Part shown: piece after piece, positions 1 through 37,761 of the stretch | How positions within the stretch are numbered: position 1 is the stretch's first letter | How the letters are laid out: the number at the start of each line of letters is the position of its first letter | Position numbers and translations under genes: made by a program | Assembly: GCA_000004985.1 (NCBI GenBank) | Contig: GG738900.1 | Origin: Naegleria gruberi | Taxonomy: Eukaryota | Length of the DNA: 64,000 nucleotides | Direction: 5' to 3' (one strand) | Notes under the pieces: generated by a model | What the model was told of the DNA's origin: nothing | What the model saw: the letters and a program-made list of their open reading frames with translations, nothing else | The model's database searches: none

Positions 1-3000
1 TCAGTGCCAAAATAGTTAATCGATGAGCAATTGCAAGTATTGAAATCTGAACAATTACCTCTCGATGTACAAACCTTAGAATTATTAGATTGAATAGAAC
101 CACATGTGGTCAATTCACATGTATCACCAAAGTAGTTATCTCTGCATGAACAATTGTTGAAAGAGGAACATTCACCTCTTGATGAACAAACTGTTGTTTC
201 CGTGTGGTTAACACCATTACAAGTAAAGTATTGACAATCATTTCCATTATAATGTTCTTCGCATTGGCATCTGTCAAATGAAGCACATTTACCAAAACCA
301 GAACAAACTGATGATGTGTTAGAGGACACTCCATTACATGTTGTAACTTCACATGTTGAACCGTAGTAGTTTGTATCACAATCACAATCATTTACATCAA
401 CACAAGAACCATGACCACTACAAACGCTGGAATCATTACTCAAAATACCATCACAAATGGTAACTTCGCACATTGGACCAAACATATTGGCCATACAAAC
501 ACATGTATTTCCATCAATACAATCACCACGACCAGAGCATGTTGAATTGGAGAATTTTGAAACACCGAAACAATTGAAATTTTCGCATTCACTTCCGTAG
601 TAACCAGCAGAACAATTACAAATATTGTAATCCATACAGGAACCCTTTGAAGAACAAACCTTAGAATCATTAGATTGAATTGAACCACATGTGGTCAATT
701 CACAATCGTTACCAAAGTAGTTGTCTCTACAAGTGCAATTGTTGTAGCTTGAACATTCACCTCTTGAAGAGCAAACTGTTGATTCAGTGTGATTGACACT
801 ATTGCAGGTGAAGAATTGACAATTATTTCCAAAGTAACCTTCATCACATTCACATTTTTCATAGCTTGTACAATGACCTCTTGAGGAACAAACAGATGAA
901 TTCAAATGTTCAATTCCATTACAATTAAAGTATTCACAATTATCACCATAATATCCTTCATCGCATGCACAAGAATCAAAATCTGCACATTGTCCCTTTC
1001 CAGAGCATACATTGGTATCGTTGGAAAGAATTGAATTACAACTAGTTAATTCGCATTCGTCTCCCAAATAATTAAGGAAACATGAACAATTATTGGTTGA
1101 CATGCATGAACCACGTGAATGACAAGCTGTCAAATTGACGTTTAAAATTTCAAAACATTTGAATTCAGAACAATCAGAACCAAATGAATTTTCAAAACAT
1201 TGACAGGAATTAAATTGAGCACAAACACCCTTTCCTGAACATGTCAAATCTGTTTGATTGGACGGAATTCCAAAACACGAAGTAACTTGACAGAATTGAC
1301 CATAATTATTTTCAGTACAATTGCAGTGATCTGTTTCAATGCATTGACCACGACCAGAACAAACAATTGATTCGTTGCTCAACGCTCCATTACATTTGTA
1401 CAATGAACAATCAGGACCATAAGCGTCTGGATCACAAATACAAGTATTCATATCAGAACATTGTCCTCTACCTGAACAAACTAATTGTGATTGATTTGAG
1501 GCAATTGAATAACAATTTGTCACTTGACAATAATCACCATAATAACCCTCTCTACATGAACATTGGTTTGGTGATAAACATTCACCTCTTCCAGAACAAA
1601 CCATTGTTTCATTACTTAAAACAGCATTACAAATAGTAACAGAACAGTTCAATCCAAAGTAATTTGAAGCACATTTACATTCATCTGTACGTGAGCAAAG
1701 ACCATGTCCAGAGCAAACTTTAGATTCTGTGTTATTCAAACCAAAACATGTATGATATTGACAATTATCTCCATAGTATCCTTCTGAACAATTACATTGA
1801 TTGTAATCAGAACAAAGACCTCTTCCAGAACAAACACTCTTATTAGCCATATCGACTCCATAACATGATGTTCTCTCACAGAATTTACCATAATATCCTT
1901 CTGTACAATTACAAGAATCTGTTCCAATACAGTGTCCCCTTGAACTACAAACAATATTGGTAAAATTACTAAATGTGCCATTACATTTAGATATGGAACA
2001 ATCATCACCATACGCATCTGAAAGACAAACACACGTATCGATATCTGAACAATTACCTCTTCCCGAACAAACAGCTTTTTCGGTATTCATTGTTCCACGA
2101 CATGAAAAGACAGAACAAATACTTCCAGAATAACCCAAATTACAAGTACAATTATTGTAAGTTGCACAGAACCCGTGACGGGAGCAAACTTGGTGACTAG
2201 TAGAGGAAACTCCGCCACAAGTTGTATTTTCACAATTTGATCCAAAATATCCTGTATCACAACTACAATGATCAGCTCCAGTACAAGAACCATGAGAACT
2301 ACAAACTGTAGAATTTACAGCTGGAATGCCGTTACAAATTGGAATTTCACAGTTTGAGCCTTCATATCCCAAGGTTTCATCACAATTACAAATGTCCAAA
2401 TGTGTACAGAAACCACGACCAGAACAAACACTAGGAATATTAGTTGGTACCCCAAAGCAACTGGTGATTTCACAGAAATCACCAGAGTAAGTGTTTGGAC
2501 AAACACAAATATCAAGATCAATGCAAGTACCTACACCATTACAGACCTCTGTAGAATTGGAAGAAATAGAATCACAGGATGTAAATTCACAACGTGGTCC
2601 ATAATAACCATCAAGACAAGAACAAACATCAAATCTGGAACAAGATCCTCTTCCTGAACACACCGTAGAATGGTTTGTTGCTTCAATACCAAAGCAAGTT
2701 GTAAGTTCACACCAAGGTCCATAATAGTTTTGAGTACAGTTGCAAGTATCTAGGCCGACACATTTACCATGACCACTGCAAGATTTGGTTTCATTACTAT
2801 AAATATCATTACATGATGTAACTTCACAATTGATTCCATAGAATTCAGGTTGACATACACATGTATCATAATTAACACATGAACCCTTGCCTGAACAAGT
2901 TTCGTTTGATAATCTAGAGATACCAAAACATTCAAAATCTTGGCAAGTATGTCCATAATAACCTTCTAAACATGAACACTTGTCAAAAGCAGTACAATTA

Positions 3001-6000
3001 CCCTTCTCTCCACAAACGGAAGAGTTGGTGGATTCAACACCATAACATGTTGTTATTTCACACCATTTACCATAATAACCATCAGCACAAGAACAATTGT
3101 TTGGTGAAATACAATCTCCTCTTCCTGCACCAGAACATAAACCAACTAATCCATTACATATTGGAATTTCACAATCTGGACCACCATATCCAAGAGTTAA
3201 ATTACAAGTACAGTTATTGTAGAATTCACAAACACCACGTTTGTTACAAGCAAGAGGTGAAGTATTGTTAATACCATTACAAGTTGTGAATTGACACATT
3301 TGTCCATAATAACCAAAATCACATACACACTTGTCTCTTCCAGCACAGTTACCATGTCCACTGCATACATATGTTTCATTACCATAAACACCATAACAAA
3401 TGGAGACAGAGCAGTCATCGCCATAGGAATCTTCCTTACAAATACATTTGTTGTAGTCAATACATTGACCTTTTCCTGCACATGTGAGATTAGAGTGATG
3501 ATCAATTAAATAGCATGAGAAAATATCCAAGCATTCAGAATTTACATAAGGCTCCTTTGGATCACAAGTGATTGGAGCATCAAATGAAGCTTCTTGGAGA
3601 GTAACTTGACCCAATTCCTCAGAATGAACCCAAACTGCACCGTGTATCTTACCTGCAACCCAAAATTCTTGACCATACTTTGCAATAACAGTTCCATGAA
3701 CATGATTGACAAAGACATTTCCGTGAAGTGTTGTACTTAAGATCCAATCAGAAACGGTATTGCCAAAGTAATAAGTAGACCAGAATACATTTCTATATGA
3801 GGCACATTTTTCATATTTGAATTCTGCACCATAATAATGGATATATGGTGCTCTGAACACTACAGGTTCAGTTCCGACAATTACAAACTTGTGACCTTCA
3901 ATTAGCCAACTGTCCCTCAAACAATAGACACCCCCAAATTCAACAATGATGAGTTTTCCTAAAGAATCTGGATTATTAATGATGAAATCACATGGGAGTG
4001 TATTCAATTCATCAACTCTTTTTCCAACCTCATCAACTAGATTTTTGCCAAATTCATCATATGTGTATGTAATTCCATAACTTCCATTTCCAACATAAGG
4101 ATAGACTGGATCAGGGAATAGGAAGGTTGGAGGAGTAATAACCTGAGAAGGAATAGCAATACTTGCTGTCAAGACAGAATTAGCTAGAGAGTTTTTAGCA
4201 AGCAAAGCAGGTTTGTTACTGATCATCTTGTAGCAAGCAAAAATATCACTTTCACATTCAGCACCAGCATAACCACCACGCAAGAACAATNNNNNNNNNN
4301 NNNNNNNNNNNNNNNNNNNNNNNNNNNNNNNNNNNNNNNNNNNNNNNNNNNNNNNNNNNNNNNNNNNNNNNNNNNNNNNNNNNNNNNNNNNNNNNNNNNN
4401 NNNNNNNNNNNNNNNNNNNNNNNNNNNNNNNNNNNNNNNNNNNNNNNNNNNNNNNNNNNNNNNNNNNNNNNNNNNNNNNNNNNNNNNNNNNNNNNNNNNN
4501 NNNNNNNNNNNNNNNNNNNNNNNNNNNNNNNNNNNNNNNNNNNNNNNNNNNNNNNNNNNNNNNNNNNNNNNNNNNNNNNNNNNNNNNNNNNNNNNNNNNN
4601 NNNNNNNNNNNNNNNNNNNNNNNNNNNNNNNNNNNNNNNNNNNNNNNNNNNNNNNNNNNNNNNNNNNNNNNNNNNNNNNNNNNNNNNNNNNNNNNNNNNN
4701 NNNNNNNNNNNNNNNNNNNNNNNNNNNNNNNNNNNNNNNNNNNNNNNNNNNNNNNNNNNNNNNNNNNNNNNNNNNNNNNNNNNNNNNNNNNNNNNNNNNN
4801 NNNNNNNNNNNNNNNNNNNNNNNNNNNNNNNNNNNNNNNNNNNNNNNNNNNNNNNNNNNNNNNNNNNNNNNNNNNNNNNNNNNNNNNNNNNNNNNNNNNN
4901 NNNNNNNNNNNNNNNNNNNNNNNNNNNNNNNNNNNNNNNNNNNNNNNNNNNNNNNNNNNNNNNNNNNNNNNNNNNNNNNNNNNNNNNNNNNNNNNNNNNN
5001 NNNNNNNNNNNNNNNNNNNNNNNNNNNNNNNNNNNNNNNNNNNNNNNNNNNNNNNNNNNNNNNNNNNNNNNNNNNNNNNNNNNNNNNNNNNNNNNNNNNN
5101 NNNNNNNNNNNNNNNNNNNNNNNNNNNNNNNNNNNNNNNNNNNNNNNNNNNNNNNNNNNNNNNNNNNNNNNNNNNNNNNNNNNNNNNNNNNNNNNNNNNN
5201 NNNNNNNNNNNNNNNNNNNNNNNNNNNNNNNNNNNNNNNNNNNNNNNNNNNNNNNNNNNNNNNNNNNNNNNNNNNNNNNNNNNNNNNNNNNNNNNNNNNN
5301 NNNNNNNNNNNNNNNNNNNNNNNNNNNNNNNNNNNNNNNNNNNNNNNNNNNNNNNNNNNNNNNNNNNNNNNNNNNNNNNNNNNNNNNNNNNNNNNNNNNN
5401 NNNNNNNNNNNNNNNNNNNNNNNNNNNNNNNNNNNNNNNNNNNNNNNNNNNNNNNNNNNNNNNNNNNNNNNNNNNNNNNNNNNNNNNNNNNNNNNNNNNN
5501 NNNNNNNNNNNNNNNNNNNNNNNNNNNNNNNNNNNNNNNNNNNNNNNNNNNNNNNNNNNNNNNNNNNNNNNNNNNNNNNNNNNNNNNNNNNNNNNNNNNN
5601 NNNNNNNNNNNNNNNNNNNNNNNNNNNNNNNNNNNNNNNNNNNNNNNNNNNNNNNNNNNNNNNNNNNNNNNNNNNNNNNNNNNNNNNNNNNNNNNNNNNN
5701 NNNNNNNNNNNNNNNNNNNNNNNNNNNNNNNNNNNNNNNNNNNNNNNNNNNNNNNNNNNNNNNNNNNNNNNNNNNNNNNNNNNNNNNNNNNNNNNNNNNN
5801 NNNNNNNNNNNNNNNNNNNNNNNNNNNNNNNNNNNNNNNNNNNNNNNNNNNNNNNNNNNNNNNNNNNNNNNNNNNNNNNNNNNNNNNNNNNNNNNNNNNN
5901 NNNNNNNNNNNNNNNNNNNNNNNNNNNNNNNNNNNNNNNNNNNNNNNNNNNNNNNNNNNNNNNNNNNNNNNNNNNNNNNNNNNNNNNNNNNNNNNNNNNN

Positions 6001-9000
6001 NNNNNNNNNNNNNNNNNNNNNNNNNNNNNNNNNNNNNNNNNNNNNNNNNNNNNNNNNNNNNNNNNNNNNNNNNNNNNNNNNNNNNNNNNNNNNNNNNNNN
6101 NNNNNNNNNNNNNNNNNNNNNNNNNNNNNNNNNNNNNNNNNNNNNNNNNNNNNNNNNNNNNNNNNNNNNNNNNNNNNNNNNNNNNNNNNNNNNNNNNNNN
6201 NNNNNNNNNNNNNNNNNNNNNNNNNNNNNNNNNNNNNNNNNNNNNNNNNNNNNNNNNNNNNNNNNNNNNNNNNNNNNNNNNNNNNNNNNNNNNNNNNNNN
6301 NNNNNNNNNNNNNNNNNNNNNNNNNNNNNNNNNNNNNNNNNNNNNNNNNNNNNNNNNNNNNNNNNNNNNNNNNNNNNNNNNNNNNNNNNNNNNNNNNNNN
6401 NNNNNNNNNNNNNNNNNNNNNNNNNNNNNNNNNNNNNNNNNNNNNNNNNNNNNNNNNNNNNNNNNNNNNNNNNNNNNNNNNNNNNNNNNNNNNNNNNNNN
6501 NNNNNNNNNNNNNNNNNNNNNNNNNNNNNNNNNNNNNNNNNNNNNNNNNNNNNNNNNNNNNNNNNNNNNNNNNNNNNNNNNNNNNNNNNNNNNNNNNNNN
6601 NNNNNNNNNNNNNNNNNNNNNNNNNNNNNNNNNNNNNNNNNNNNNNNNNNNNNNNNNNNNNNNNNNNNNNNNNNNNNNNNNNNNNNNNNNNNNNNNNNNN
6701 NNNNNNNNNNNNNNNNNNNNNNNNNNNNNNNNNNNNNNNNNNNNNNNNNNNNNNNNNNNNNNNNNNNNNNNNNNNNNNNNNNNNNNNNNNNNNNNNNNNN
6801 NNNNNNNNNNNNNNNNNNNNNNNNNNNNNNNNNNNNNNNNNNNNNNNNNNNNNNNNNNNNNNNNNNNNNNNNNNNNNNNNNNNNNNNNNNNNNNNNNNNN
6901 NNNNNNNNNNNNNNNNNNNNNNNNNNNNNNNNNNNNNNNNNNNNNNNNNNNNNNNNNNNNNNNNNNNNNNNNNNNNNNNNNNNNNNNNNNNNNNNNNNNN
7001 NNNNNNNNNNNNNNNNNNNNNNNNNNNNNNNNNNNNNNNNNNNNNNNNNNNNNNNNNNNNNNNNNNNNNNNNNNNNNNNNNNNNNNNNNNNNNNNNNNNN
7101 NNNNNNNNNNNNNNNNNNNNNNNNNNNNNNNNNNNNNNNNNNNNNNNNNNNNNNNNNNNNNNNNNNNNNNNNNNNNNNNNNNNNNNNNNNNNNNNNNNNN
7201 NNNNNNNNNNNNNNNNNNNNNNNNNNNNNNNNNNNNNNNNNNNNNNNNNNNNNNNNNNNNNNNNNNNNNNNNNNNNNNNNNNNNNNNNNNNNNNNNNNNN
7301 NNNNNNNNNNNNNNNNNNNNNNNNNNNNNNNNNNNNNNNNNNNNNNNNNNNNNNNNNNNNNNNNNNNNNNNNNNNNNNNNNNNNNNNNNNNNNNNNNNNN
7401 NNNNNNNNNNNNNNNNNNNNNNNNNNNNNNNNNNNNNNNNNNNNNNNNNNNNNNNNNNNNNNNNNNNNNNNNNNNNNNNNNNNNNNNNNNNNNNNNNNNN
7501 NNNNNNNNNNNNNNNNNNNNNNNNNNNNNNNNNNNNNNNNNNNNNNNNNNNNNNNNNNNNNNNNNNNNNNNNNNNNNNNNNNNNNNNNNNNNNNNNNNNN
7601 NNNNNNNNNNNNNNNNNNNNNNNNNNNNNNNNNNNNNNNNNNNNNNNNNNNNNNNNNNNNNNNNNNNNNNNNNNNNNNNNNNNNNNNNNNNNNNNNNNNN
7701 NNNNNNNNNNNNNNNNNNNNNNNNNNNNNNNNNNNNNNNNNNNNNNNNNNNNNNNNNNNNNNNNNNNNNNNNNNNNNNNNNNNNNNNNNNNNNNNNNNNN
7801 NNNNNNNNNNNNNNNNNNNNNNNNNNNNNNNNNNNNNNNNNNNNNNNNNNNNNNNNNNNNNNNNNNNNNNNNNNNNNNNNNNNNNNNNNNNNNNNNNNNN
7901 NNNNNNNNNNNNNNNNNNNNNNNNNNNNNNNNNNNNNNNNNNNNNNNNNNNNNNNNNNNNNNNNNNNNNNNNNNNNNNNNNNNNNNNNNNNNNNNNNNNN
8001 NNNNNNNNNNNNNNNNNNNNNNNNNNNNNNNNNNNNNNNNNNNNNNNNNNNNNNNNNNNNNNNNNNNNNNNNNNNNNNNNNNNNNNNNNNNNNNNNNNNN
8101 NNNNNNNNNNNNNNNNNNNNNNNNNNNNNNNNNNNNNNNNNNNNNNNNNNNNNNNNNNNNNNNNNNNNNNNNNNNNNNNNNNNNNNNNNNNNNNNNNNNN
8201 NNNNNNNNNNNNNNNNNNNNNNNNNNNNNNNNNNNNNNNNNNNNNNNNNNNNNNNNNNNNNNNNNNNNNNNNNNNNNNNNNNNNNNNNNNNNNNNNNNNN
8301 NNNNNNNNNNNNNNNNNNNNNNNNNNNNNNNNNNNNNNNNNNNNNNNNNNNNNNNNNNNNNNNNNNNNNNNNNNNNNNNNNNNNNNNNNNNNNNNNNNNN
8401 NNNNNNNNNNNNNNNNNNNNNNNNNNNNNNNNNNNNNNNNNNNNNNNNNNNNNNNNNNNNNNNNNNNNNNNNNNNNNNNNNNNNNNNNNNNNNNNNNNNN
8501 NNNNNNNNNNNNNNNNNNNNNNNNNNNNNNNNNNNNNNNNNNNNNNNNNNNNNNNNNNNNNNNNNNNNNNNNNNNNNNNNNNNNNNNNNNNNNNNNNNNN
8601 NNNNNNNNNNNNNNNNNNNNNNNNNNNNNNNNNNNNNNNNNNNNNNNNNNNNNNNNNNNNNNNNNNNNNNNNNNNNNNNNNNNNNNNNNNNNNNNNNNNN
8701 NNNNNNNNNNNNNNNNNNNNNNNNNNNNNNNNNNNNNNNNNNNNNNNNNNNNNNNNNNNNNNNNNNNNNNNNNNNNNNNNNNNNNNNNNNNNNNNNNNNN
8801 NNNNNNNNNNNNNNNNNNNNNNNNNNNNNNNNNNNNNNNNNNNNNNNNNNNNNNNNNNNNNNNNNNNNNNNNNNNNNNNNNNNNNNNNNNNNNNNNNNNN
8901 NNNNNNNNNNNNNNNNNNNNNNNNNNNNNNNNNNNNNNNNNNNNNNNNNNNNNNNNNNNNNNNNNNNNNNNNNNNNNNNNNNNNNNNNNNNNNNNNNNNN

Positions 9001-11789
9001 NNNNNNNNNNNNNNNNNNNNNNNNNNNNNNNNNNNNNNNNNNNNNNNNNNNNNNNNNNNNNNNNNNNNNNNNNNNNNNNNNNNNNNNNNNNNNNNNNNNN
9101 NNNNNNNNNNNNNNNNNNNNNNNNNNNNNNNNNNNNNNNNNNNNNNNNNNNNNNNNNNNNNNNNNNNNNNNNNNNNNNNNNNNNNNNNNNNNNNNNNNNN
9201 NNNNNNNNNNNNNNNNNNNNNNNNNNNNNNNNNNNCACCATAATAGTTTTCGGTACAATTACAAAGATCTGGACGGTAACAAATACCACGTCTATCCTTA
9301 GTACATACGCCAGTAAGTCCATTACAGATTGGAATTTCACAGTTAAAGCCTCCATATCCAAATGTACTATTACATGTGCAGTTATTATAAAAATCACAAG
9401 AACCACGTCCACTACAGACATCTGGAGAGTTGTATTCAATATCGGCGCAAGTTGTCCATTCACACCAAGTTCCATTATAATTAGGATAACAGCTACATGT
9501 ATCCTTTGCAATACAAGCGCCATGACCATTGCTACAAACTGATGATTCAGTACCTAGAGTACCGTTACACATGGCAATAGAACAATCTTGGCCGTATTGA
9601 TCTGGTAAACACAAGCAAGTATTGTTACCTATACAGTAACCATTATTTGAGCATCCATCTTCAACAATTGATTTGGAATTGAAACAGAATGTAAGTAAAC
9701 ATTGCTCATTAATGTATGGTTCGTATCCGTTGAATGTGATTGGAGGAGTGAATGTTACATCGAATAATAGCATCTGTGTACCACCCATAAACCATAAAGC
9801 GCCCTGAATAGTATCATAAATTTCAATTTGATGGTATGGAGCCATTCCTACCACTGTACCGTGAACATTTCCAGAGAAAAAATTACCATTTCTACCATAG
9901 TCCCAAGTCAACCAAAAGACATTTCTATAGGAGGCACATAACAGATAGTAAAAAACGGCATTATAATAATTGACGTATGGAGCCTTAAAAACAACAGGCT
10001 CAAGACCATGGATAATAAAAATATGATCCTTAATTGTGATACCATTAGGGAAACAATACACACCACCATGCTTGATAACAGTAATATTCTGTAATTCATC
10101 TTGACTATTAATGGTATGTGTACAATCCATGTACAATAATTCCATGGATTTCTTTTCCATTTCTTGAATAATCAACTCTGTCATCGGATCATTTTGAGGT
10201 TTTGAAATGACAACATCATTTCCACTTGGTTCGTACATGACTGGAGTTGTTGGTGAGTAGGCATGAGAAACCTGAATGTCAGGTAAGGCGAAACTTGCCT
10301 GTAATTCCTTTTTAGAGTTTCTGGCAATCATAATAGGTTTGGAACTGATAAGTTTGTAGCCAGCAAATATATCTACAGCACAAGCCTCACCAATGAAACC
10401 AGTTTGGCAAGTACAATTGTTGTATGAAATACAAGTACCGTGTCCAGAACAAACTAAAGGAGAATTAGAATCATCACTGAAACATTGTGTCAATTCACAA
10501 TTAGAGCCAAAATAATTATCTACACAAGAGCAAGAGTCAGGAGCAGTACAGTTACCTAGTGAGGTACAAACAGAAGCATTAGAGAAATGCACACCAGAAC
10601 AATTCCAATGTTGGCACTTATCACCATAATATCCATACAGACAATTACAGTTATCAGAACCAATACAGTCACCGTTACCAGAGCAAACAGTTGAATCGTT
10701 TGATCCTATACCATAACACCAATGAACGGTGAAAATCTCTTCATCACAATTGTTACCAGAGTATCCATCAGTGCACAAGCATTTGTCTAAGGCTGTGCAA
10801 TTTCCTTGGCCATTACATACCAGTGAGGAGTTTGACAATACACCAAAGCATTGAGTAACTTGGCAATCATTTCCAAAATAATTGGAACTACATTGACAAT
10901 TATTTAAATCTACACAAGCGCCATTACCAGAGCAAACAGTTGAATCGTTTGATCCTATACCATAACACCAATGAACGGTGAAAATCTCTTCATCACAATT
11001 GTTACCAGAGTATCCATCAGTGCACGAGCATTTATCTAAGGCTGTGCAATTTCCTTGGCCATTACATACCAGTGAGGAGTTTGACAATACACCAAAGCAT
11101 TGGGTAACTTGGCAATCATTTCCAAAATAATTGGAACTACATTGGCAATTATTTAAATCTACACAAGCGCCATTACCAGAGCAAACAGTTGAATCGTTTG
11201 ATCCTATACCATAACACCAATGAACGGTGAAAATCTCTTCATCACAATTGTTACCAGAGTATCCATCAGTGCACAAGCATTTGTCTAAGGCTGTGCAATT
11301 TCCTTGGCTACTACATACCAGTGAGGAGTTTGACAATACACCAAAGCATTGAGTAACTTGGCAATCATCTCCAAAATAATTGGAACTACATTGACAATTA
11401 TTTAAATCTACACAAGCGCCATTACCAGAGCAAACTCTAGAGTCATTACTTAGAAGTTCATTACATTCAAAAACAGAACATAAAGGACCATAATAACCAC
11501 TATCACACAAACAATTATCTGGTGATTGGCAACCATGTCCTGACAATATTAACGGATTGATTTGTGGATATTCCAAGCATTCTATATATTCACAATTGTT
11601 GCCTGAATATCCTGTAAGGCAACTACAAGTCTCATCAGCTATACAAGTTCCGTTACCTGAGCAAACCAATAGATCGGTTGAATCCAACGAATTACAGGTA
11701 AAGGCTTGTACACACTTAGTTGAAAAAACTACTAAGAGCGTTACTAACACAACACACTTAATAAATAATGAGGTGTTGATTCCGCTCAT
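1..11789 (-). CDS. Giant secreted EGF-like (tenascin-type) repeat protein. ATG at 11789 with a signal peptide; the 3' end continues off the window. The ORF is interrupted by the assembly gap. Architecture is SP - EGF modules - module X - EGF modules - [gap] - module X - at least 35 EGF modules.
   Basis: Minus-strand translation from 11789 gives MSGINTSLFIKCVVLVTLLVVFSTKCVQA, then CxSGxGxCxxxxxCxCxxGYYGxxCE repeats of ~32 aa. The same frame is continuous from 4289 down to 1 (translated by hand, no stops). The frame at 11789 and at 4289 is identical (7500 nt apart). The ORF track lacks it because the frame never terminates inside the window. Confidence 0.8.
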   Translation of the reverse strand, partial: MSGINTSLFIKCVVLVTLLVVFSTKCVQAFTCNSLDSTDLLVCSGNGTCIADETCSCLTGYSGNNCEYIECLEYPQINPLILSGHGCQSPDNCLCDSGYYGPLCSVFECNELLSNDSRVCSGNGACVDLNNCQCSSNYFGDDCQVTQCFGVLSNSSLVCSSQGNCTALDKCLCTDGYSGNNCDEEIFTVHWCYGIGSNDSTVCSGNGACVDLNNCQCSSNYFGNDCQVTQCFGVLSNSSLVCNGQGNCTALDKCSCTDGYSGNNCDEEIFTVHWCYGIGSNDSTVCSGNGACVDLNNCQCSSNYFGNDCQVTQCFGVLSNSSLVCNGQGNCTALDKCLCTDGYSGNNCDEEIFTVHWCYGIGSNDSTVCSGNGDCIGSDNCNCLYGYYGDKCQHWNCSGVHFSNASVCTSLGNCTAPDSCSCVDNYFGSNCELTQCFSDDSNSPLVCSGHGTCISYNNCTCQTGFIGEACAVDIFAGYKLISSKPIMIARNSKKELQASFALPDIQVSHAYSPTTPVMYEPSGNDVVISKPQNDPMTELIIQEMEKKSMELLYMDCTHTINSQDELQNITVIKHGGVYCFPNGITIKDHIFIIHGLEPVVFKAPYVNYYNAVFYYLLCASYRNVFWLTWDYGRNGNFFSGNVHGTVVGMAPYHQIEIYDTIQGALWFMGGTQMLLFDVTFTPPITFNGYEPYINEQCLLTFCFNSKSIVEDGCSNNGYCIGNNTCLCLPDQYGQDCSIAMCNGTLGTESSVCSNGHGACIAKDTCSCYPNYNGTWCEWTTCADIEYNSPDVCSGRGSCDFYNNCTCNSTFGYGGFNCEIPICNGLTGVCTKDRRGICYRPDLCNCTENYYGXXXXXXXXXXXXXXXXXXXXXXXXXXXXXXXXXXXXXXXXXXXXXXXXXXXXXXXXXXXXXXXXXXXXXXXXXXXXXXXXXXXXXXXXXXXXXXXXXXXXXXXXXXXXXXXXXXXXXXXXXXXXXXXXXXXXXXXXXXXXXXXXXXXXXXXXXXXXXXXXXXXXXXXXXXXXXXXXXXXXXXXXXXXXXXXXXXXXXXXXXXXXXXXXXXXXXXXXXXXXXXXXXXXXXXXXXXXXXXXXXXXXXXXXXXXXXXXXXXXXXXXXXXXXXXXXXXXXXXXXXXXXXXXXXXXXXXXXXXXXXXXXXXXXXXXXXXXXXXXXXXXXXXXXXXXXXXXXXXXXXXXXXXXXXXXXXXXXXXXXXXXXXXXXXXXXXXXXXXXXXXXXXXXXXXXXXXXXXXXXXXXXXXXXXXXXXXXXXXXXXXXXXXXXXXXXXXXXXXXXXXXXXXXXXXXXXXXXXXXXXXXXXXXXXXXXXXXXXXXXXXXXXXXXXXXXXXXXXXXXXXXXXXXXXXXXXXXXXXXXXXXXXXXXXXXXXXXXXXXXXXXXXXXXXXXXXXXXXXXXXXXXXXXXXXXXXXXXXXXXXXXXXXXXXXXXXXXXXXXXXXXXXXXXXXXXXXXXXXXXXXXXXXXXXXXXXXXXXXXXXXXXXXXXXXXXXXXXXXXXXXXXXXXXXXXXXXXXXXXXXXXXXXXXXXXXXXXXXXXXXXXXXXXXXXXXXXXXXXXXXXXXXXXXXXXXXXXXXXXXXXXXXXXXXXXXXXXXXXXXXXXXXXXXXXXXXXXXXXXXXXXXXXXXXXXXXXXXXXXXXXXXXXXXXXXXXXXXXXXXXXXXXXXXXXXXXXXXXXXXXXXXXXXXXXXXXXXXXXXXXXXXXXXXXXXXXXXXXXXXXXXXXXXXXXXXXXXXXXXXXXXXXXXXXXXXXXXXXXXXXXXXXXXXXXXXXXXXXXXXXXXXXXXXXXXXXXXXXXXXXXXXXXXXXXXXXXXXXXXXXXXXXXXXXXXXXXXXXXXXXXXXXXXXXXXXXXXXXXXXXXXXXXXXXXXXXXXXXXXXXXXXXXXXXXXXXXXXXXXXXXXXXXXXXXXXXXXXXXXXXXXXXXXXXXXXXXXXXXXXXXXXXXXXXXXXXXXXXXXXXXXXXXXXXXXXXXXXXXXXXXXXXXXXXXXXXXXXXXXXXXXXXXXXXXXXXXXXXXXXXXXXXXXXXXXXXXXXXXXXXXXXXXXXXXXXXXXXXXXXXXXXXXXXXXXXXXXXXXXXXXXXXXXXXXXXXXXXXXXXXXXXXXXXXXXXXXXXXXXXXXXXXXXXXXXXXXXXXXXXXXXXXXXXXXXXXXXXXXXXXXXXXXXXXXXXXXXXXXXXXXXXXXXXXXXXXXXXXXXXXXXXXXXXXXXXXXXXXXXXXXXXXXXXXXXXXXXXXXXXXXXXXXXXXXXXXXXXXXXXXXXXXXXXXXXXXXXXXXXXXXXXXXXXXXXXXXXXXXXXXXXXXXXXXXXXXXXXXXXXXXXXXXXXXXXXXXXXXXXXXXXXXXXXXXXXXXXXXXXXXXXXXXXXXXXXXXXXXXXXXXXXXXXXXXXXXXXXXXXXXXXXXXXXXXXXXXXXXXXXXXXXXXXXXXXXXXXXXXXXXXXXXXXXXXXXXXXXXXXXXXXXXXXXXXXXXXXXXXXXXXXXXXXXXLFLRGGYAGAECESDIFACYKMISNKPALLAKNSLANSVLTASIAIPSQVITPPTFLFPDPVYPYVGNGSYGITYTYDEFGKNLVDEVGKRVDELNTLPCDFIINNPDSLGKLIIVEFGGVYCLRDSWLIEGHKFVIVGTEPVVFRAPYIHYYGAEFKYEKCASYRNVFWSTYYFGNTVSDWILSTTLHGNVFVNHVHGTVIAKYGQEFWVAGKIHGAVWVHSEELGQVTLQEASFDAPITCDPKEPYVNSECLDIFSCYLIDHHSNLTCAGKGQCIDYNKCICKEDSYGDDCSVSICYGVYGNETYVCSGHGNCAGRDKCVCDFGYYGQMCQFTTCNGINNTSPLACNKRGVCEFYNNCTCNLTLGYGGPDCEIPICNGLVGLCSGAGRGDCISPNNCSCADGYYGKWCEITTCYGVESTNSSVCGEKGNCTAFDKCSCLEGYYGHTCQDFECFGISRLSNETCSGKGSCVNYDTCVCQPEFYGINCEVTSCNDIYSNETKSCSGHGKCVGLDTCNCTQNYYGPWCELTTCFGIEATNHSTVCSGRGSCSRFDVCSCLDGYYGPRCEFTSCDSISSNSTEVCNGVGTCIDLDICVCPNTYSGDFCEITSCFGVPTNIPSVCSGRGFCTHLDICNCDETLGYEGSNCEIPICNGIPAVNSTVCSSHGSCTGADHCSCDTGYFGSNCENTTCGGVSSTSHQVCSRHGFCATYNNCTCNLGYSGSICSVFSCRGTMNTEKAVCSGRGNCSDIDTCVCLSDAYGDDCSISKCNGTFSNFTNIVCSSRGHCIGTDSCNCTEGYYGKFCERTSCYGVDMANKSVCSGRGLCSDYNQCNCSEGYYGDNCQYHTCFGLNNTESKVCSGHGLCSRTDECKCASNYFGLNCSVTICNAVLSNETMVCSGRGECLSPNQCSCREGYYGDYCQVTNCYSIASNQSQLVCSGRGQCSDMNTCICDPDAYGPDCSLYKCNGALSNESIVCSGRGQCIETDHCNCTENNYGQFCQVTSCFGIPSNQTDLTCSGKGVCAQFNSCQCFENSFGSDCSEFKCFEILNVNLTACHSRGSCMSTNNCSCFLNYLGDECELTSCNSILSNDTNVCSGKGQCADFDSCACDEGYYGDNCEYFNCNGIEHLNSSVCSSRGHCTSYEKCECDEGYFGNNCQFFTCNSVNHTESTVCSSRGECSSYNNCTCRDNYFGNDCELTTCGSIQSNDSKVCSSKGSCMDYNICNCSAGYYGSECENFNCFGVSKFSNSTCSGRGDCIDGNTCVCMANMFGPMCEVTICDGILSNDSSVCSGHGSCVDVNDCDCDTNYYGSTCEVTTCNGVSSNTSSVCSGFGKCASFDRCQCEEHYNGNDCQYFTCNGVNHTETTVCSSRGECSSFNNCSCRDNYFGDTCELTTCGSIQSNNSKVCTSRGNCSDFNTCNCSSINYFGT
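3505..4240 (-). repeat. Non-EGF conserved module X, copy 1 (~235 aa), embedded between EGF runs
   Basis: Translation gives DIFACYKMISNKPALLAKNS...GGVYCLRDSWLIEGHKFVIVGTEPVVFRAPYIHYYGAEFKYEKCASYRNVFW...HGTVIA.... This is alignable to copy 2 through shared motifs DIFAxYKxISxKP, GGVYC, EPVVFxAPY, CASYRNVFW and HGTV. Confidence 0.7.
4291..9235. other. Assembly gap (4,945 N)
   Basis: An uninterrupted N run. ORFs 4223..9529 and 4258..9258 in the track are artefacts of translating N as X. Confidence 0.99.
9700..10385 (-). repeat. Non-EGF conserved module X, copy 2
   Basis: Translation gives DIFAGYKLISSKPIMIARNS...HGGVYCFPNGITIKDHIFIIHGLEPVVFKAPYVNYYNAVFYYLLCASYRNVFW...HGTVVG.... It is a diverged paralogue of copy 1 (roughly 40-45% identity by eye). 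Confidence 0.7.
10670..11440 (-). repeat. Near-identical tandem triplication of a 249-bp (83-aa, EGF-module) unit inside the giant gene
   Basis: The string 'agcaaacagttgaatcgtttgatcctataccataacaccaatgaacggtgaaaatctcttcatcacaattgttaccagagtatccatcagtgcac...' recurs at 10682, 10931 and 11180. The period is exactly 249 nt with only a few substitutions. A partial fourth copy starts at 11429. Confidence 0.9.
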
Positions 11790-14344: not shown

Positions 14345-16097
14345 TTATTTGTCAAGAATCTTTAAAGGAAGTTTGCCCTTCCATTCTGCAAACTTTTCCA
14401 GTAGCGGCATCATGTGAATAAGAATGAGAGAGAACATTCTAGTCTTCTTCCAAGCATCATGAGGATCCACCAAAATATCCTTCGAAATGTGTGGTTTCTT
14501 TGGTCTTGGGAAGTTGACACCAGTTGCAGCTCCTAAAATATCACCAACTGGATGTCTGGTCTTTTCTTGGTATTTGAGCAATTTAACAACCATATCACAA
14601 CTACTTGTAATTAAGCAACCTTAATAATAATCATATTAAGTATTAAATATTCATAAATACTTACCTGCACCATAACGTGGTTGACCCAATCCAATATAAA
14701 TCAAATTCTTTCTATTTGGAACAAAGATACCATGAATTAACTTTGGATATCCAAATTCAGTCTTTGTAACAAAATTATCCAACAATGGTACTGATGTAAA
14801 GTAACCAGTACAACAAACGATAACATCAAATTCCCTCTCTTCACCATTCTTGAATTCAACCTTATTTCCTCCTTTGAAACATTTGATATCTCCGTGTGGA
14901 TGAATTTCACCTAACTTTAAATATTGCAACAATTCAGAGTTAATAGTTGGGTGAGTTTCAAAGAGTCTGTGAGTTGGTGTTGGAATACCATAGTCCTTTT
15001 CATAGTCCAAACCAGTTGTAATTTTCAAAATCAATGTAAAGATTATTTGTTGAAGACGGAGTGGCAAATAAGGAATGATCAATTCAACAGATGGTTTACC
15101 AAATAAAGTTCTTGGTAAAAAGTAATAACCTCTTCTGATAGAAATGTGACTTTCCTTACCATATCTTGCAGCTTCAACAGCAACATCACAAGCACTGTTT
15201 CCTCCACCAATGACCAAAACACGTTTATCCTTAAAGATTGAAGGTTCCTTATAATCCTTACTGTGAATTAAGAGTCCAGTAAATTTGGATTGACCTTCAT
15301 AAGATGGCATTCTTCTACACCAATGGTGACCATTATTAATAATAACACCCTTATAGATACGTGTGAATTTTTGACCATTCTTTTCAAATTCAACCTTATA
15401 TTCAGAATCCTTATTCTCAACAGGTTCAATACTATTAACAGTAGTTTCCAATGATAATCTTTCAGCAATTCTGTAATGTTTACAATAATCATGGAAATAT
15501 TCCATCATTTGACGACAGGATGGGAATTGAGGGAATGAAGAAGGCATTGGATAATCTTTGAATTCAGTTGTCAATCTACTACTAATGATGTGTGTCGATT
15601 CATAAACTCCAACACTCCAATTACCTCCGATAACATTATTAGTATCTAATGAACAGAGTTAATTTTTCCATGAAATTTAAAAAGATTAACATTCGTGTGT
15701 GAATAAAATTATTCGATAATAATAATTAGAAACCTACCGACAATATCAAAAGGAATACCATAACGAGTCAATGTGGCACTACTTCCCAAACCACTGAATC
15801 CACAACCAACAATTAAAAATTTGTTTTCTAAATTAATTTAAATCATCAAATCATCAAATCATCATCGGATCATGAAAATATATTAATATTGATAAATTGA
15901 TTATAGTTTGAAAACATACCAGTCTTTTCGAATGGAGCATCACTGAAAATTTCATCATACTTGCTTCTATCGTAGTGGAATGGAAATTCAGTTGGAGGAC
16001 ATTTCACTGGATCTGACCAGTAGAAAATCAAATCACTCCAATAAAGCAAGTAGAGTCCCAATAGAGAGATGGCAATGCAGCCAAGAAGTATTAACAT
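14345..16097 (-). CDS. Flavin-containing monooxygenase (FMO), 4 exons: complement(join(14345..14619, 14665..15645, 15738..15827, 15920..16097)), ~507 aa. It has an N-terminal TM anchor.
   Basis: FAD motif LIVGCGFSGLG in exon 2. Motifs VLVIGGGNSACDVAVE and FxGxxxHxxxY-like are in exon 3. All donors are G|GTAAGT, G|GTAGGT or G|GTATGT in phase 1. Intron lengths are 92, 92 and 45 nt. Confidence 0.8.
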
Positions 16098-16497
16098 TTT
16101 TTTCTTTTGTGCAACAAAGCAACTTGAAAGATTGTGCCATCAACAACAGTTCAGTGTGTAATAAAGATGACACTTCTTGTGTGATGATGAAGCTTGTTTG
16201 AGGAAGGACCTCAACACCGTGGTCCTCTTTTTTGTGCGAAGGCATTATTGTTCACTTTTTTCCTTAGCCAATTTGTCAAATCACTTACCATACTTTCTAT
16301 TGAGTCCCTTAAAAGGAATTAAATTTGCCATACTTTACTGAAATACAGTTGTGAATTTTCCTGGATCTATTATGTCAATTCTAAACATTCATTATTGTGT
16401 TTAGATCTTCTAGAATAATAAATTATTCAAAACAGGTCAAGTTAATAATTAATAGTTTTTGTTTTTTTATGAAGAGTTAATACAGGTTTGTACAGGT

Positions 16498-19299
16498 TTA
16501 ATATTCATCATCATCAGATCCATAGATTTCGCCCAATTCCCACAAATTCAAACGACGGCTAATGGCAAAATCTTGTTCTTCGAGATAGGACTTGGCAACT
16601 GACTTGAATTCAGACAAAAGGAGCTTCTTATCAGCAAAAACTAATCCACTACGGATCATTTGCTTATTCAAGTTATCTTCTTGCTTGGCACCATTTTGGA
16701 CAAGGGTGACATAGTTTACACCTGCATCAGAATATTCAACAGTTAATTGCCATTCACCTTCCATCAAAGTTTCTCTCAAAAAGGTTTCCAATTCAAATCT
16801 AAGATTTTCGTGATCCTTAACGAAAGCCAAACGAGCCTTTTGAGCACATTCTGGAATAGTGAGGAGTTGATTACCGGCTGGAATAGTCTTGAGAGTTGAA
16901 ATGGCAACTTCTTCGCTGTTACCAAAATCAGAATATAAAACAACAGCATTAGCATTATTGACAGAAATAACCTTAGCTCTGTACCAAGAATTATCTTCAG
17001 TGAATTGGGCAAGACAGACTGAACCAACAGTTGCTGAAGCAAGAGCTTCAAGTTGAGCAACGTTAAGTTCAGCAATCAACTTTTCAACAGTCTTCAACTT
17101 TTCGACAACATCAGAACCTTGGTAGTAGAAAGTAATTGGATCTTCAAAATCGGTAACTCTGATAGTTTGTGTCTTTCTAGAGTGAGAAACAGAGAATGAT
17201 TGAGCAACTGGCTTGGATTTTTGTTCTTGTTCTGGTTGTTCTCTCTTCTTTCTTTCTGGGAAAGCAACAGTGTGATCTTCCAATTTCCAAACACCCTTCT
17301 TGGCCTTCTTAGCCTTACCTTCAGCTTCATTCAATTCTTCAAAGATCTTCAATCTCTTAGCATATGGTTGAACAATAGCAAGACCAGCTTCCAACAAAGT
17401 GTTAGTATAATTCTTACCATTGATCAACATTTGACCAGTGAGTGAGCTAGCCTTATCAACTTCAGCTTCAAGAACGAGTTCAACATCTCTGCATGAAGTA
17501 GAGATCAAAGTAAGTTGCTTAGCTTCTTCAGCCAAATCCTTACCGAGTGGTTTATCAGATGATGGAATAGCAATACCAGCCAATGAGAAAGTGACAACAG
17601 AGGCATCATTTGGAAGACTCAAAACGAATTTAGAAGCAGAAAGAATCTTTTCAACAACAGCCTTAGTGTTACCAGACTTACCAGTCAAAAGCTTGTTCAA
17701 TTTACCAGCAGCATCACCAGAAACAACAGTATATGGATGTTGTGGAGCTCTCTTCTTTCCGTGGAGACCCTTTTGTCTCTTGATGGCTTCATTTTCAGCC
17801 AAAATGAGACTATCAAAAGCAGATGATCTTTCTTCATCAGCCTTAAGCTTCATAACTTCAGCATAACCTTCTCTGACCAATTCAACAGCAACAGATTTCT
17901 TATTGACAAGAACAGTACAGAATCTTCTAAGTTCCTTCTTTTCAGTACCTAATTCTCTTCTATAGTCAACTTCAACTTGAATTTCCTTTCCAGCAACCTT
18001 GCTTCTCAACAATTCTCTAGCTTCCCAAGCCCATTGTTCAGATTCTGGCTTCTGTTCAGCTTGCTTGGAAGCTTCCTTCTTTTCTGGCTTCTTTGTGTAT
18101 GAAATGAATTTCTTGGTTCTAATGTTTGAGAGAGAAATCTTTTCTTCTTGTCCATCATTCTTGACAATCTTCAAAGTATCACCTGAAAGAACTTCCAAAA
18201 CTCTAGCAGTGAAACCAGTGTCAGATTGATGTAATGATTGTTTTGGTGGTTCATAATCAACCCACAAATTCTTTCTTTCATTCTTAGCTTTTTGTTCAGC
18301 ACTTCTGAATCTTGGAGCATACTTAGACTTTGGAGCGCTTCTTTCATCAACAGAAACATATCCGATCATCAAGAGTTCTTCTTGATAAGTGAATGGCTTG
18401 TCACTATTTTCATCAACAGAAATAATAATACTTCCGTGCAAATTGCTTGTCTTTTCCTTTTGTTCCTTAGCATCCTTGCCATCCTTTGATTTATCCTTCT
18501 TTGGAGTATCAATACCTTCGAACAAGACAGTAACATCTCTGTTCAACAAACGAACTTCAGTATGAGTCTTGGCTTCCTTTGAGAATGGTTGAGCAACCTT
18601 TTGTTGAGTTTCTTTACCCTTGGTTGTACTTGGGCAATAAACACCAGTCAAATTCATGAAAACAACTTCATTAGTTGGGAGTCTAACCTTCAAAGCAGTA
18701 CCGCTAATGACATATTCAACAATAACATCAACAGTCTTACCCTTGAATGATTTCAACAAAGCTTGTGGATCTTCAGTCTTGGCTTGTTTGGCATATTTCT
18801 CGCTATTTGACCAAACACCAATCTTTTGTTCTTCAGCAGCTTTTTGGAGAGCAATCAATTTCTTATAATCATCAGATTGATTCTTAATATCCTTGACTTT
18901 ACCCCAACCAGCTTCAACAACAGATTCATTAATATTTTCATCATCCAAGAAGATTGTAGCATAGTTCATTCCTGTTTCCTTGACAGTGTAATCGACTCTG
19001 AATCTAATGGTTTTACCAATGAGTTTCTTTCTCAAGAATTCTCTTGCTTCAAAAGCCCAAGGCTATTATTGTTGTAAAGTAAATTAAACACAACAAATGT
19101 GTGTGAATTAGATTATTGTTCTAGTTATCAATGATTTTCACAAAGAAATACTTACTTCATCTTCTCCATCTTTTGTACCTAAACGTGGTGCTTTAACATC
19201 AGCAAGGATTAAAGTCTTTTCTCTATCGTAGAATTGTGGATGGCAGATTTTAATAGTGTTACCACCAAGGACTGCTTTGACGATACCTTCCATAGACAT
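16498..19299 (-). CDS. SND1: Tudor-SN (staphylococcal nuclease domain-containing protein), 2 exons: complement(join(16498..19062, 19156..19299)), ~902 aa
   Basis: Repeated SN-like domains and a Tudor domain (…LAQFTEDNSWYRAKVISV…YSDFGNSEEV). Exon 1 (MSMEGIVKAVLGGNTIKICHPQFYDREKTLILADVKAPRLGTKDGEDE) splices to PWAFEAREFLRKKLIGK through a GTAAGT..TAG intron of 93 nt. Confidence 0.85.
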
Positions 19300-19878
19300 T
19301 TTTTTATAAACTTAAACACCGATTAAATAATGGTGGGATTTTTAAAACACAGTAATATACTTTGTAGCTAAAAAGCTAAATAGTATCAAAACAAAAGACT
19401 ACTAAACAGAAAAATAAAGAGTGATGATGAGATTCCACAAAGCAGATATACCTTATGGAGTCAAGGAGGGTTTTGGATTTTTTTTAAGAGTGAAAAATAA
19501 ATATTTTATTGTTGCTCCATCAATATGATCACAGGAGGTTTTTTCTTTGTGTTTTTGCCACGTATCGCAAAAAGCCTTCCGTCCAGCTCTGTTTACAATA
19601 TCCAACCACGAACCATAGCAACTTCTTCATTGACCTGTACACACAAAAATTAATTAGAAAGGACCTTTTTGCAACCATGTCGATTATCATAACTAATTAA
19701 TATTTTCATTCATCATCATGTATGAAGTATCATTAGCAACAATGAAGCTGCATACATTGATCAATTTGATTATTACATTTGGAAATTTAACGTGATTGAC
19801 CTGCCACATGCATTTCTTCTCAATCCATAAACCTAATATGAGTGAATAATAATATTACAAAGATCATCATGATACAAT

Positions 19879-37702: not shown

Positions 37703-37761
37703 TTTTTTTTGTCTTCAAATTGAAGTGCAAGTTCCGAGTTTCATTTGTTTATTTTTCAACT

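What the first reader, a model, noticed from the sequence alone, without database searches (positions are those of the whole stretch)
10670..11440. Near-identical 3 x 249-bp tandem repeat inside the coding sequence
Three consecutive 83-aa EGF-module units differ by only a few nucleotides, whereas neighbouring EGF modules are highly diverged at DNA level. This implies a very recent in-frame expansion or ongoing gene conversion. It also makes copy-number collapse in the assembly likely, so the true number may be larger.
Basis: seen in the sequence. Interest (0 to 1): 0.5.

Follow-up and report, generated by a model that had tools for sequence, protein, structure and literature searches.

The report
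Young EGF-module triplication in Naegleria gene
A giant cell-surface-type protein gene of the amoeba Naegleria gruberi carries three almost identical head-to-tail copies of a 249-bp piece encoding two EGF modules, which is a real but ordinary example of a recent in-frame duplication inside a modular gene.

Summary
Window 10675-11435 holds 3.06 head-to-tail copies of a 249-bp unit with no indels and only 7 variable sites; copies are 97.2-98.8% identical pairwise. The coding strand is minus. Each unit encodes 83 aa, which is two six-cysteine teneurin/tenascin-type EGF modules. All other EGF modules visible in the same gene are only 66-78% identical at DNA level.

The host gene is a giant ORF of more than 3,900 codons with a signal peptide. 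It alternates EGF arrays with a ~240-aa non-EGF module, and it belongs to Naegleria gruberi NEG-M. A 4,945-N run interrupts it and it runs off the window.

The array is bounded by an exact 14-nt motif, GTTTGCTCTGGTAA (VCSGN), which occurs only at each unit start and just after the last unit. This is the footprint of misaligned recombination or slippage between two in-phase EGF modules, followed by a second expansion.

Copy divergence (dS 0-0.06) is far below that to the nearest other Naegleria lineage (dS 0.31).

Copy-number collapse or instability could not be tested, because no reads or second assembly were reachable.

Verdict: a real, young, in-frame triplication of a known kind, of low to moderate interest.

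The parts
10675..11435 (-). Near-identical tandem array: 3 x 249 bp plus a 14-nt partial fourth copy, in frame. It encodes aa 119-372 of the protein.
   Evidence: TRF; lag-249 self-comparison; BLASTN of the unit.
11187..11435 (-). Unit U1 (5'-most in the gene). It has 3 private changes, all non-synonymous (N->D, N->S, G->S relative to the consensus).
10938..11186 (-). Unit U2 (middle). It has 4 private changes: 3 synonymous plus L->S.
10689..10937 (-). Unit U3 (3'-most). It is identical to the three-copy consensus.
10675..10688 (-). 14-nt motif GTTTGCTCTGGTAA (VCSGN) directly after U3. The same motif starts U1, U2 and U3 (11422-11435, 11173-11186, 10924-10937). It is the inferred microhomology at the duplication breakpoints.
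   Evidence: Junction alignment. The pattern search finds exactly 4 exact copies in the 64 kb, with 0 expected.
3..11789 (-). Host gene (partial). It has an ATG at 11789 and one open frame of 3,929 codons counting the N run, and it continues beyond the left end of the window.
   Evidence: Six-frame translation; Pfam EGF_Teneurin/EGF_2/EGF_TEN.
11703..11789 (-). Predicted signal peptide (MSGINTSLFIKCVVLVTLLVVFSTKCVQA). This was read by eye; no predictor was run.
   Evidence: Sequence. The paralogue-like P0009 has a hydrophobic stretch at the same place before 'FTCN'.
10380..11696 (-). N-terminal EGF array of 11 modules (aa 32-470). Module 2 has lost one cysteine. Modules 3-9 are built from the triplicated unit.
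   Evidence: Module parsing; Pfam.
9681..10373 (-). Non-EGF module, copy 1 (231 aa). It has no Pfam or NCBIfam match, and its predicted fold is DUF3494 ice-binding-protein-like.
3513..4247 (-). Non-EGF module, second visible copy (245 aa, 43% identical to copy 1).
4291..9235 (.). Run of 4,945 N inside the gene. The reading frame is the same on both sides.

Best explanation
This is a genuine, evolutionarily young, in-frame tandem triplication of a 249-bp segment encoding two EGF modules. It lies in the N-terminal EGF array of a giant secreted or membrane-type protein of Naegleria gruberi NEG-M. Inferred mechanism: the ancestral gene had one unit whose first 14 nt (GTTTGCTCTGGTAA, the conserved VCSGN of an EGF module) recurred exactly 249 nt downstream in the in-phase module two positions along. 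Misalignment at this microhomology, by unequal sister-chromatid or homologue exchange or by replication slippage, produced two copies. The resulting 249-bp homology then allowed a further unequal exchange to give three. Because the period is 83 codons and the breakpoints lie at the same position of two EGF modules, every junction recreates an intact six-cysteine module. The protein simply gained four more EGF modules (166 aa, with 3 N-glycosylation sequons per unit). A few point substitutions have accumulated since. What is shown: the array, its boundaries, the intact frame and the low divergence. What is inferred: the order of events and the recombination mechanism.
For: There are three gap-free copies at 97.2-98.8% identity with no indels. 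Every other module pair in the gene is 66-78% identical. Identity drops abruptly at both edges, and both edges lie in the same exact 14-mer. That 14-mer occurs only at the three unit starts and just after U3 in the whole window. Frame and all cysteines are preserved, and the other two frames are full of stops. Pairwise dS between copies is 0-0.06. At the flanking Tudor-SN gene, dS is 0.008 to a conspecific metagenome contig and 0.31 to the nearest other Naegleria lineage. The homologues P0241 (NAEGRDRAFT_51207) and P0009 have only 3 EGF modules before the first non-EGF module, against 11 here. The three N. gruberi paralogues contain no internal repeat above 62-71% amino-acid identity, so this is a local, recent event rather than a family trait.
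Against: No second strain, haplotype or read set could be examined, so neither the copy number nor the age is independently confirmed. The seven variants form a star pattern: U3 has none, and the private sites of U1 and U2 are interleaved. The order of the two duplication steps therefore cannot be reconstructed. A simple model in which the middle copy is a crossover hybrid is not what is seen. With 0-3 synonymous differences, the dS estimates have very wide error. An N run in the same gene shows that this gene may have been hard to assemble.
Confidence: 0.75

Rival explanations
1. Concerted evolution. The three units are old paralogous module pairs kept nearly identical by ongoing gene conversion or repeated unequal exchange, and are not a recent duplication.
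For: High identity alone cannot separate the two models. All three copies keep an intact frame and cysteines, and U3 equals the consensus. The gene clearly has a long history of internal duplication: super-repeats of module plus EGFs at about 43% amino-acid identity, and a 252-nt block at 78% identity at lag 585.
Against: The homogeneous tract is exactly 3 units plus 14 nt, with both ends in the same 14-mer. Conversion tracts would not be expected to stop at unit boundaries, and there is no identity gradient into the flanking homologous modules. No other modules in the visible gene or in three paralogues show any homogenisation. No variant is shared in a tract-like pattern.
Confidence: 0.12
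2. The assembly misstates the copy number. Either a longer near-identical array was collapsed to three, or allelic haplotypes were stacked into a false tandem duplication.
For: Near-identical 249-bp repeats are a classic assembly hazard. A 4,945-N run lies 1.4 kb away in the same gene. Naegleria is described as mainly a heterozygous diploid (PMC9928731).
Against: The three copies carry different private variants and join without gaps, in frame, at module-phase-preserving junctions with a microhomology footprint. A haplotype artefact would not produce this. The array is only 761 bp, comparable to one Sanger read (from memory, this genome was Sanger-sequenced). No read data were available, so neither direction is tested.
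Confidence: 0.13
3. This is a functionally selected hypervariable site. The array would be a contingency-type coding minisatellite whose copy number changes frequently to vary the length or epitopes of a surface protein.
For: The protein looks extracellular: it has a signal peptide, EGF arrays and N-glycosylation sequons. The paralogue P0241 has a REJ domain, a GPS-like motif and a TM segment. All three private changes in U1 are non-synonymous.
Against: There are no population data. Four non-synonymous against three synonymous changes is compatible with neutrality or mild constraint. Three copies is the minimum for an array, and no similar array exists in the paralogues.
Confidence: 0.07

Closest known systems
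Teneurin/tenascin-type EGF-like repeat arrays (Pfam PF23106 EGF_Teneurin, PF07974 EGF_2, PF25024 EGF_TEN)
   Same: The modules have six cysteines, are about 39 aa long and are packed head to tail. Pfam scores are far above the cut-offs (157 bits against 24.3).
   Different: The visible protein has no FN3, fibrinogen, YD-repeat or other tenascin/teneurin hallmark. The organism is a heterolobosean amoeba. The resemblance is at the level of the EGF module only.
Naegleria gruberi paralogues NAEGRDRAFT_51207 (P0241, 4,968 aa), NAEGRDRAFT_76139 and NAEGRDRAFT_75960
   Same: They share the architecture of EGF arrays alternating with the ~240-aa non-EGF module. P0241 is collinear with the window gene at 40-48% amino-acid identity.
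   Different: P0241 and P0243 have only 2-3 EGF modules before their first non-EGF module (the P0242 gene model starts inside an EGF module), and all three have no internal repeat above 62-71% amino-acid identity. The near-identical triplication is specific to the window gene.
Intragenic coding tandem repeats (coding minisatellites) in surface and secreted proteins, e.g. yeast FLO/ALS adhesins, human LPA kringle IV-2, and the EGF/DPY and PIGSFEAST arrays of Drosophila dumpy (recalled from memory, not tested here)
   Same: They are in-frame, head-to-tail, near-identical units that each encode whole protein modules. They arise and change by unequal recombination or slippage and alter the length of an extracellular protein.
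   Different: Those examples have documented copy-number polymorphism and usually many copies. Here only three copies are seen in one assembly, and no polymorphism data exist.
DUF3494 / type-1 ice-binding-protein beta-solenoid fold (PDB 3wp9, 5uyt, 7bwx, 6bg8). This applies to the neighbouring non-EGF module, not to the repeat.
   Different: There is no sequence-level match to any Pfam or NCBIfam model even at E = 10. The model is of low confidence (pLDDT 56, pTM 0.62), and ice binding is not implied.

Membership tests
EGF-like domain (teneurin/tenascin type; PF23106, PF07974, PF25024) | Profile match above the curated cut-off | tested here: met
   EGF_Teneurin scores 157.1 bits (cut-off 24.3), EGF_2 154.5 (22.1) and EGF_TEN 152.1 (65) for aa 1-851. 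The C-terminal part gives similar or stronger scores.
EGF-like domain (teneurin/tenascin type; PF23106, PF07974, PF25024) | Six-cysteine pattern C-x-C-x-C-x-CxC-x-C in every module of the repeated unit | tested here: met
   Both modules of each of the three units match the pattern.
Tenascin or teneurin proteins (as whole-protein families) | EGF array combined with FN3 plus a fibrinogen globe (tenascin), or with a TM segment plus NHL/YD-repeat shell (teneurin) | tested here: not met
   No such domains are found in the 2,280 visible residues. The paralogue P0241 instead ends in a REJ domain, a GPS-like motif and a TM segment. The C-terminus of the window gene lies off the window.
Young intragenic tandem duplication / coding minisatellite | Head-to-tail copies with a period that is a multiple of 3, an intact frame, and identity far above that of paralogous neighbours | tested here: met
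   The period is 249 (83 codons), with 3.06 copies at 97-99% against a 66-78% background.
Young intragenic tandem duplication / coding minisatellite | Breakpoint footprint: a partial extra copy or microhomology at the array edge | tested here: met
   The exact 14-mer GTTTGCTCTGGTAA sits at each unit start and after U3, and nowhere else in the 64 kb.
Young intragenic tandem duplication / coding minisatellite | Copy-number polymorphism between individuals or strains | not testable with these tools
   No second copy of the locus was found. The exact 32-mer scan of JGI metagenomes gave 0 hits, the related-locus scan gave 0, and exact-protein look-ups of neighbours were not on record.
Concerted evolution by gene conversion | Homogenised tracts whose ends are independent of unit boundaries, or mosaic sharing of variants between copies | tested here: not met
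   The tract ends coincide with unit boundaries. All seven variants are private to one copy and interleaved, with no mosaic blocks. The test has low power with only 7 sites.
REJ/GPS-type receptor (polycystin-1/PKDREJ-like ectodomain), as in paralogue P0241 | REJ domain, GPS motif and a TM segment C-terminal to the repeats | not testable with these tools
   The 3' end of the gene lies outside the window. In P0241 the REJ domain (PF02010) scores E = 1.8e-17, and a 'CQCSKFTNVFVIETT' motif plus a TM segment is visible.
DUF3494 ice-binding-like domain (for the flanking non-EGF module) | Sequence match to PF11999 or related profiles | tested here: not met
   No Pfam or NCBIfam families match at E <= 10, and there are no significant PDB sequence hits.
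DUF3494 ice-binding-like domain (for the flanking non-EGF module) | Beta-solenoid with a flanking long helix (fold level) | tested here: inconclusive
   [not shown]

The most novel reading that the evidence does not exclude
The three-copy array is only the assembled tip of an unstable, homogenised EGF array. The true locus, possibly including part of what the 4,945-N run stands for, would hold more near-identical units. Copy number would vary between N. gruberi clones or haplotypes, giving this free-living amoeba a length-variable surface receptor analogous to the coding-minisatellite adhesins of yeasts and parasites.
Probability: 0.1. Interest if true: 0.45.

Novelty: new member of a known kind. 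Interest (0 to 1): 0.2.

Why it matters
This is a clean, datable snapshot of how EGF arrays grow. A 14-nt identity between two in-phase modules is enough to seed a duplication that adds whole, correctly folded modules. It also marks a place in the N. gruberi reference where copy number should be verified before the gene model is trusted. Beyond that it is an ordinary event. It changes no concept and opens no long-standing question. The more unusual material is the host gene family: giant proteins that alternate EGF arrays with a module seen only in N. gruberi proteins and one metagenome sequence. That is context, not the finding.

Tried and rejected
1. Bacterial-code ORF listing showed no ORF over the repeat. 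The cause was the N run and the ORF running off the window end, not a lack of coding. Six-frame translation resolved it.

2. I looked for the same locus elsewhere to compare copy number, without success.
- Exact-protein look-ups of five window ORFs and of P0241 and P0244 were all not on record.
- An exact 32-mer of the unit in JGI metagenomes gave 0 hits.
- A related-locus scan with the module-1 region gave 0 relatives.
- The word-index protein search with the N-terminal 851 aa found nothing above 50% identity.
- The ENA metagenome that holds a 99.2% identical neighbour contig (L001) yielded only a divergent homologue of the EGF gene (L003, 65-75% DNA identity).

3. I tested whether the modules just downstream (EGF9-10) are an older copy of the same unit. 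EGF10 is 51% identical to the first EGF module of the unit, no better than several distant modules, so the idea was rejected.

4. I tested whether U3 is a simple recombinant of U1 and U2. The private sites are interleaved, so it was rejected.

5. Literature searches for Naegleria EGF-repeat proteins returned nothing relevant. The pangenome paper confirms that only one N. gruberi genome (NEG-M) is in general use.

6. The word-index search with the non-EGF module found nothing. Only the full HMMER scan found its 4 relatives.

Full report
**Observation**

Tandem Repeats Finder reports a single long-period array in the whole window. It lies at 10675-11435, with period 249, 3.1 copies, 97% matches, no indels and score 1473. 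Comparing each base with the base 249 nt further on gives an almost unbroken run of identity from 10675 to 11186. There are 4 mismatches between the two lower copies and 7 between the two upper ones, and identity falls abruptly to background on both sides.

**Coding strand and units**

The plus strand and two of the minus-strand frames are full of stops. One minus-strand frame is open from 11804 down to the left end of the window. In that frame the units are:
- U1: 11435-11187
- U2: 11186-10938
- U3: 10937-10689
- a 14-nt start of a fourth unit: 10688-10675

Each unit is 83 codons and encodes two six-cysteine EGF modules: CFGVLSNSSLVC..NC plus the linker DEEIFTVHW, and CYGIGSNDSTVC..DC. Seven of 249 positions vary:
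- U1 has three private changes, all non-synonymous.
- U2 has four private changes, three synonymous and one L/S.
- U3 has none.

Every cysteine codon is intact. One unit also carries three N-x-S/T sequons.

**Contrast with the neighbours**

BLASTN of one unit against the window gives 100, 98.8 and 98.4% for the three copies. After that, nothing exceeds 77% over a stretch of at least 40 nt; a few shorter hits of 11-29 nt score up to 100%. A self-BLAST of all visible parts of the gene gives 66-78% (median 69%) for every other module pair of at least 100 nt. The runner-up is a 252-nt block at 78% (25-276 against 610-861). At protein level, background module-to-module identity has a median of 42% and a 99th percentile of 59%.

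**The host gene**

- The ATG is at 11789. It is followed by a signal-peptide-like N-terminus (MSGINTSLFIKCVVLVTLLVVFSTKCVQA, judged by eye) and then 11 EGF modules (aa 32-470).
- Next comes a 231-aa cysteine-poor non-EGF module (9681-10373), followed by more EGF modules.
- A run of 4,945 N (4291-9235) follows, and the same frame resumes beyond it.
- After the N run there is a second copy of the non-EGF module (3513-4247, 43% identical to the first) and at least 29 further EGF modules, which run off the window.
- Pfam assigns the EGF modules to EGF_Teneurin, EGF_2 and EGF_TEN with scores far above the cut-offs.

**Organism**

- The closest EGF-array proteins are from Naegleria, Acrasis and Percolomonas.
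- The flanking Tudor-SN gene is 59% identical to the N. fowleri protein and 46% to the Willaertia protein.
- N. gruberi NEG-M protein XP_002672152.1 maps onto window 19299-16501 with zero mismatches and one 31-codon intron gap. The window is therefore N. gruberi NEG-M sequence.
- The other genes nearby are ordinary: P450, FMO, SSRP1, a Sec7 GEF and F-box/LRR proteins.

**Gene family**

- The non-EGF module has no Pfam or NCBIfam match even at E = 10, and the word-index search found nothing.
- An exhaustive HMMER profile search of 1.84 billion representatives found only four proteins.
- Three are N. gruberi paralogues: NAEGRDRAFT_51207 (4,968 aa, five modules), NAEGRDRAFT_76139 and NAEGRDRAFT_75960. 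The fourth is a metagenome protein.
- NAEGRDRAFT_51207 is collinear with the window gene at 40-48% identity. It ends in an S/T/N-rich stalk, a REJ domain (E = 1.8e-17), a GPS-like motif, a TM helix and a cytoplasmic tail. By analogy the window gene is probably a giant type-I surface protein, but its 3' end is off the window.
- NAEGRDRAFT_51207 and the metagenome protein P0009 have only three EGF modules ahead of the first non-EGF module, against 11 here.
- None of the three paralogues has an internal repeat above 62-71% amino-acid identity. The near-identical triplication is a local peculiarity of this gene.

**Mechanism**

Aligning the four junction contexts shows that the 14-mer GTTTGCTCTGGTAA (VCSGN) begins U1, U2 and U3 and recurs immediately after U3. 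The sequence outside it is unrelated on both sides. This 14-mer occurs exactly four times in 64 kb, at those four places only, with 0 expected by chance. One 1-mismatch copy lies in EGF module 1.

The simplest reading is as follows:
- The ancestor had one 249-bp unit bounded by this 14-nt direct repeat, sitting in two in-phase EGF modules.
- Misalignment there, by unequal exchange or replication slippage, gave two units.
- The 249-bp homology then allowed a third unit.

Because the breakpoints are at equivalent module positions, every junction regenerates an intact module. This step is inferred, not shown. The seven variants form a star pattern, so the order of events cannot be recovered. The simple model in which the middle copy is a crossover hybrid is not what is seen.

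**Age**

| Comparison | dS | dN |
|---|---|---|
| Between repeat copies (0-3 synonymous differences over about 51 sites) | 0-0.06 | 0.005-0.02 |
| Tudor-SN gene, window against conspecific ENA metagenome contig L001 (99.2% DNA identity) | 0.008 | 0 |
| Tudor-SN gene, window against nearest other lineage (Logan SRR30197293, 89% DNA identity) | 0.31 | 0.07 |

The copies therefore separated, or were last homogenised, long after that lineage split. The separation is possibly several-fold older than within-species variation. The counts are tiny and the errors wide.

**Duplication or gene conversion**

The homogeneous tract is exactly three units plus 14 nt and ends in the same motif on both sides. 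There is no identity gradient into the flanking homologous modules, no mosaic sharing of variants, and no homogenisation of any other modules. This favours recent duplication. Conversion among the three copies since then cannot be excluded.

**Assembly issue**

I could not reach reads or any second assembly of this locus. Against a false duplication:
- the junctions are in frame and preserve module phase;
- the array edges carry a microhomology footprint;
- the three copies carry different private variants.

Against a strong expectation of collapse, the array is only 761 bp and the three copies are distinguishable. In favour of caution, the 4,945-N run lies in the same gene. It preserves the reading frame, which has a one-in-three chance for an arbitrary gap length, so it may be either a sized scaffold gap or a mask. 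Collapse therefore remains possible but is not indicated.

**Comparison with known systems, and verdict**

The modules are members of the EGF-like superfamily (tested, met). The protein is not a tenascin or teneurin, because their hallmark domains are absent. As a phenomenon, this is a young coding tandem duplication of the kind known from modular extracellular proteins such as yeast adhesins, LPA kringle IV-2 and Drosophila dumpy. Those comparisons are from memory. Their defining property, copy-number polymorphism, is untested here.

This is a new member of a known kind, real and neatly interpretable, but unsurprising. Interest is 0.2.

The most novel reading not excluded is that this is the visible part of an unstable, longer homogenised array that gives a length-variable surface receptor. 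I put its probability at about 0.1.

Noticed in passing
window 4291-9235: A run of 4,945 N lies inside the giant EGF gene, and the reading frame is the same on both sides. It may be a sized scaffold gap of the NEG-M assembly or a mask. By comparison with the paralogue P0241, it probably hides further non-EGF modules and EGF arrays.
   Followed up: partly
[not shown]
   Followed up: partly
window 10764-10790 and equivalents in U1 and U2 (aa 'CDEEIFTVHW'): The first EGF module of each repeated unit ends in an unusually long linker, CDEEIFTVHW. Ordinary module junctions have 4 residues here; this one has 9. The linker resembles the 'C-E-x-D-I-F-A-G-Y-K' motif that starts every non-EGF module. It may be a relic of a deleted module. 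This is inference only.
   Followed up: no
window 11478-11579 (aa 71-104, EGF module 2): The second EGF module has lost its second cysteine: 'LILSGHGCQSPDNC' here against 'VCSRHGQCSSPDNC' in the paralogue P0241. That leaves five cysteines and one unpaired. It could be a degenerate module or a sequence error.
   Followed up: no
window 25-293 vs 610-878: An older intragenic duplication: about 250-270 nt (two EGF modules) at 77-78% DNA identity, at a spacing of 585 nt (five modules). This is the second most similar pair in the visible gene and shows that block duplication has recurred in this gene.
   Followed up: partly
L001 (ENA ERZ929261 / ERR1078381, contig k127_16943) vs window 15204-19550: A public metagenome assembly contains a contig 99.2% identical to this N. 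gruberi region (12 mismatches and 4 gaps in 4.36 kb; Tudor-SN protein 100% identical). A conspecific N. gruberi strain is therefore present in that sample. Its raw reads could be mined for the repeat's copy number.
   Followed up: partly
L003 (same metagenome, contig k127_130209), protein P0009: This is the N-terminal fragment of a homologue of the EGF/non-EGF-module gene family. It has a signal peptide, three EGF modules and one module, and is 45% identical at amino-acid level and 65-75% at DNA level to the window gene. It is either an unannotated paralogue or comes from another Naegleria in the sample.
   Followed up: partly
window 43565-43642 (ORF 42513-43667, plus strand): A short imperfect coding tandem repeat (period 30/15) encodes CDYGGGGGG-type Gly/Cys-rich repeats at the C-terminus of a signal-peptide-bearing ORF that has no Pfam match.
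   Followed up: no
window 36431-39441 (minus strand): Two adjacent F-box plus leucine-rich-repeat genes sit in tandem and are probably local paralogues.
   Followed up: no
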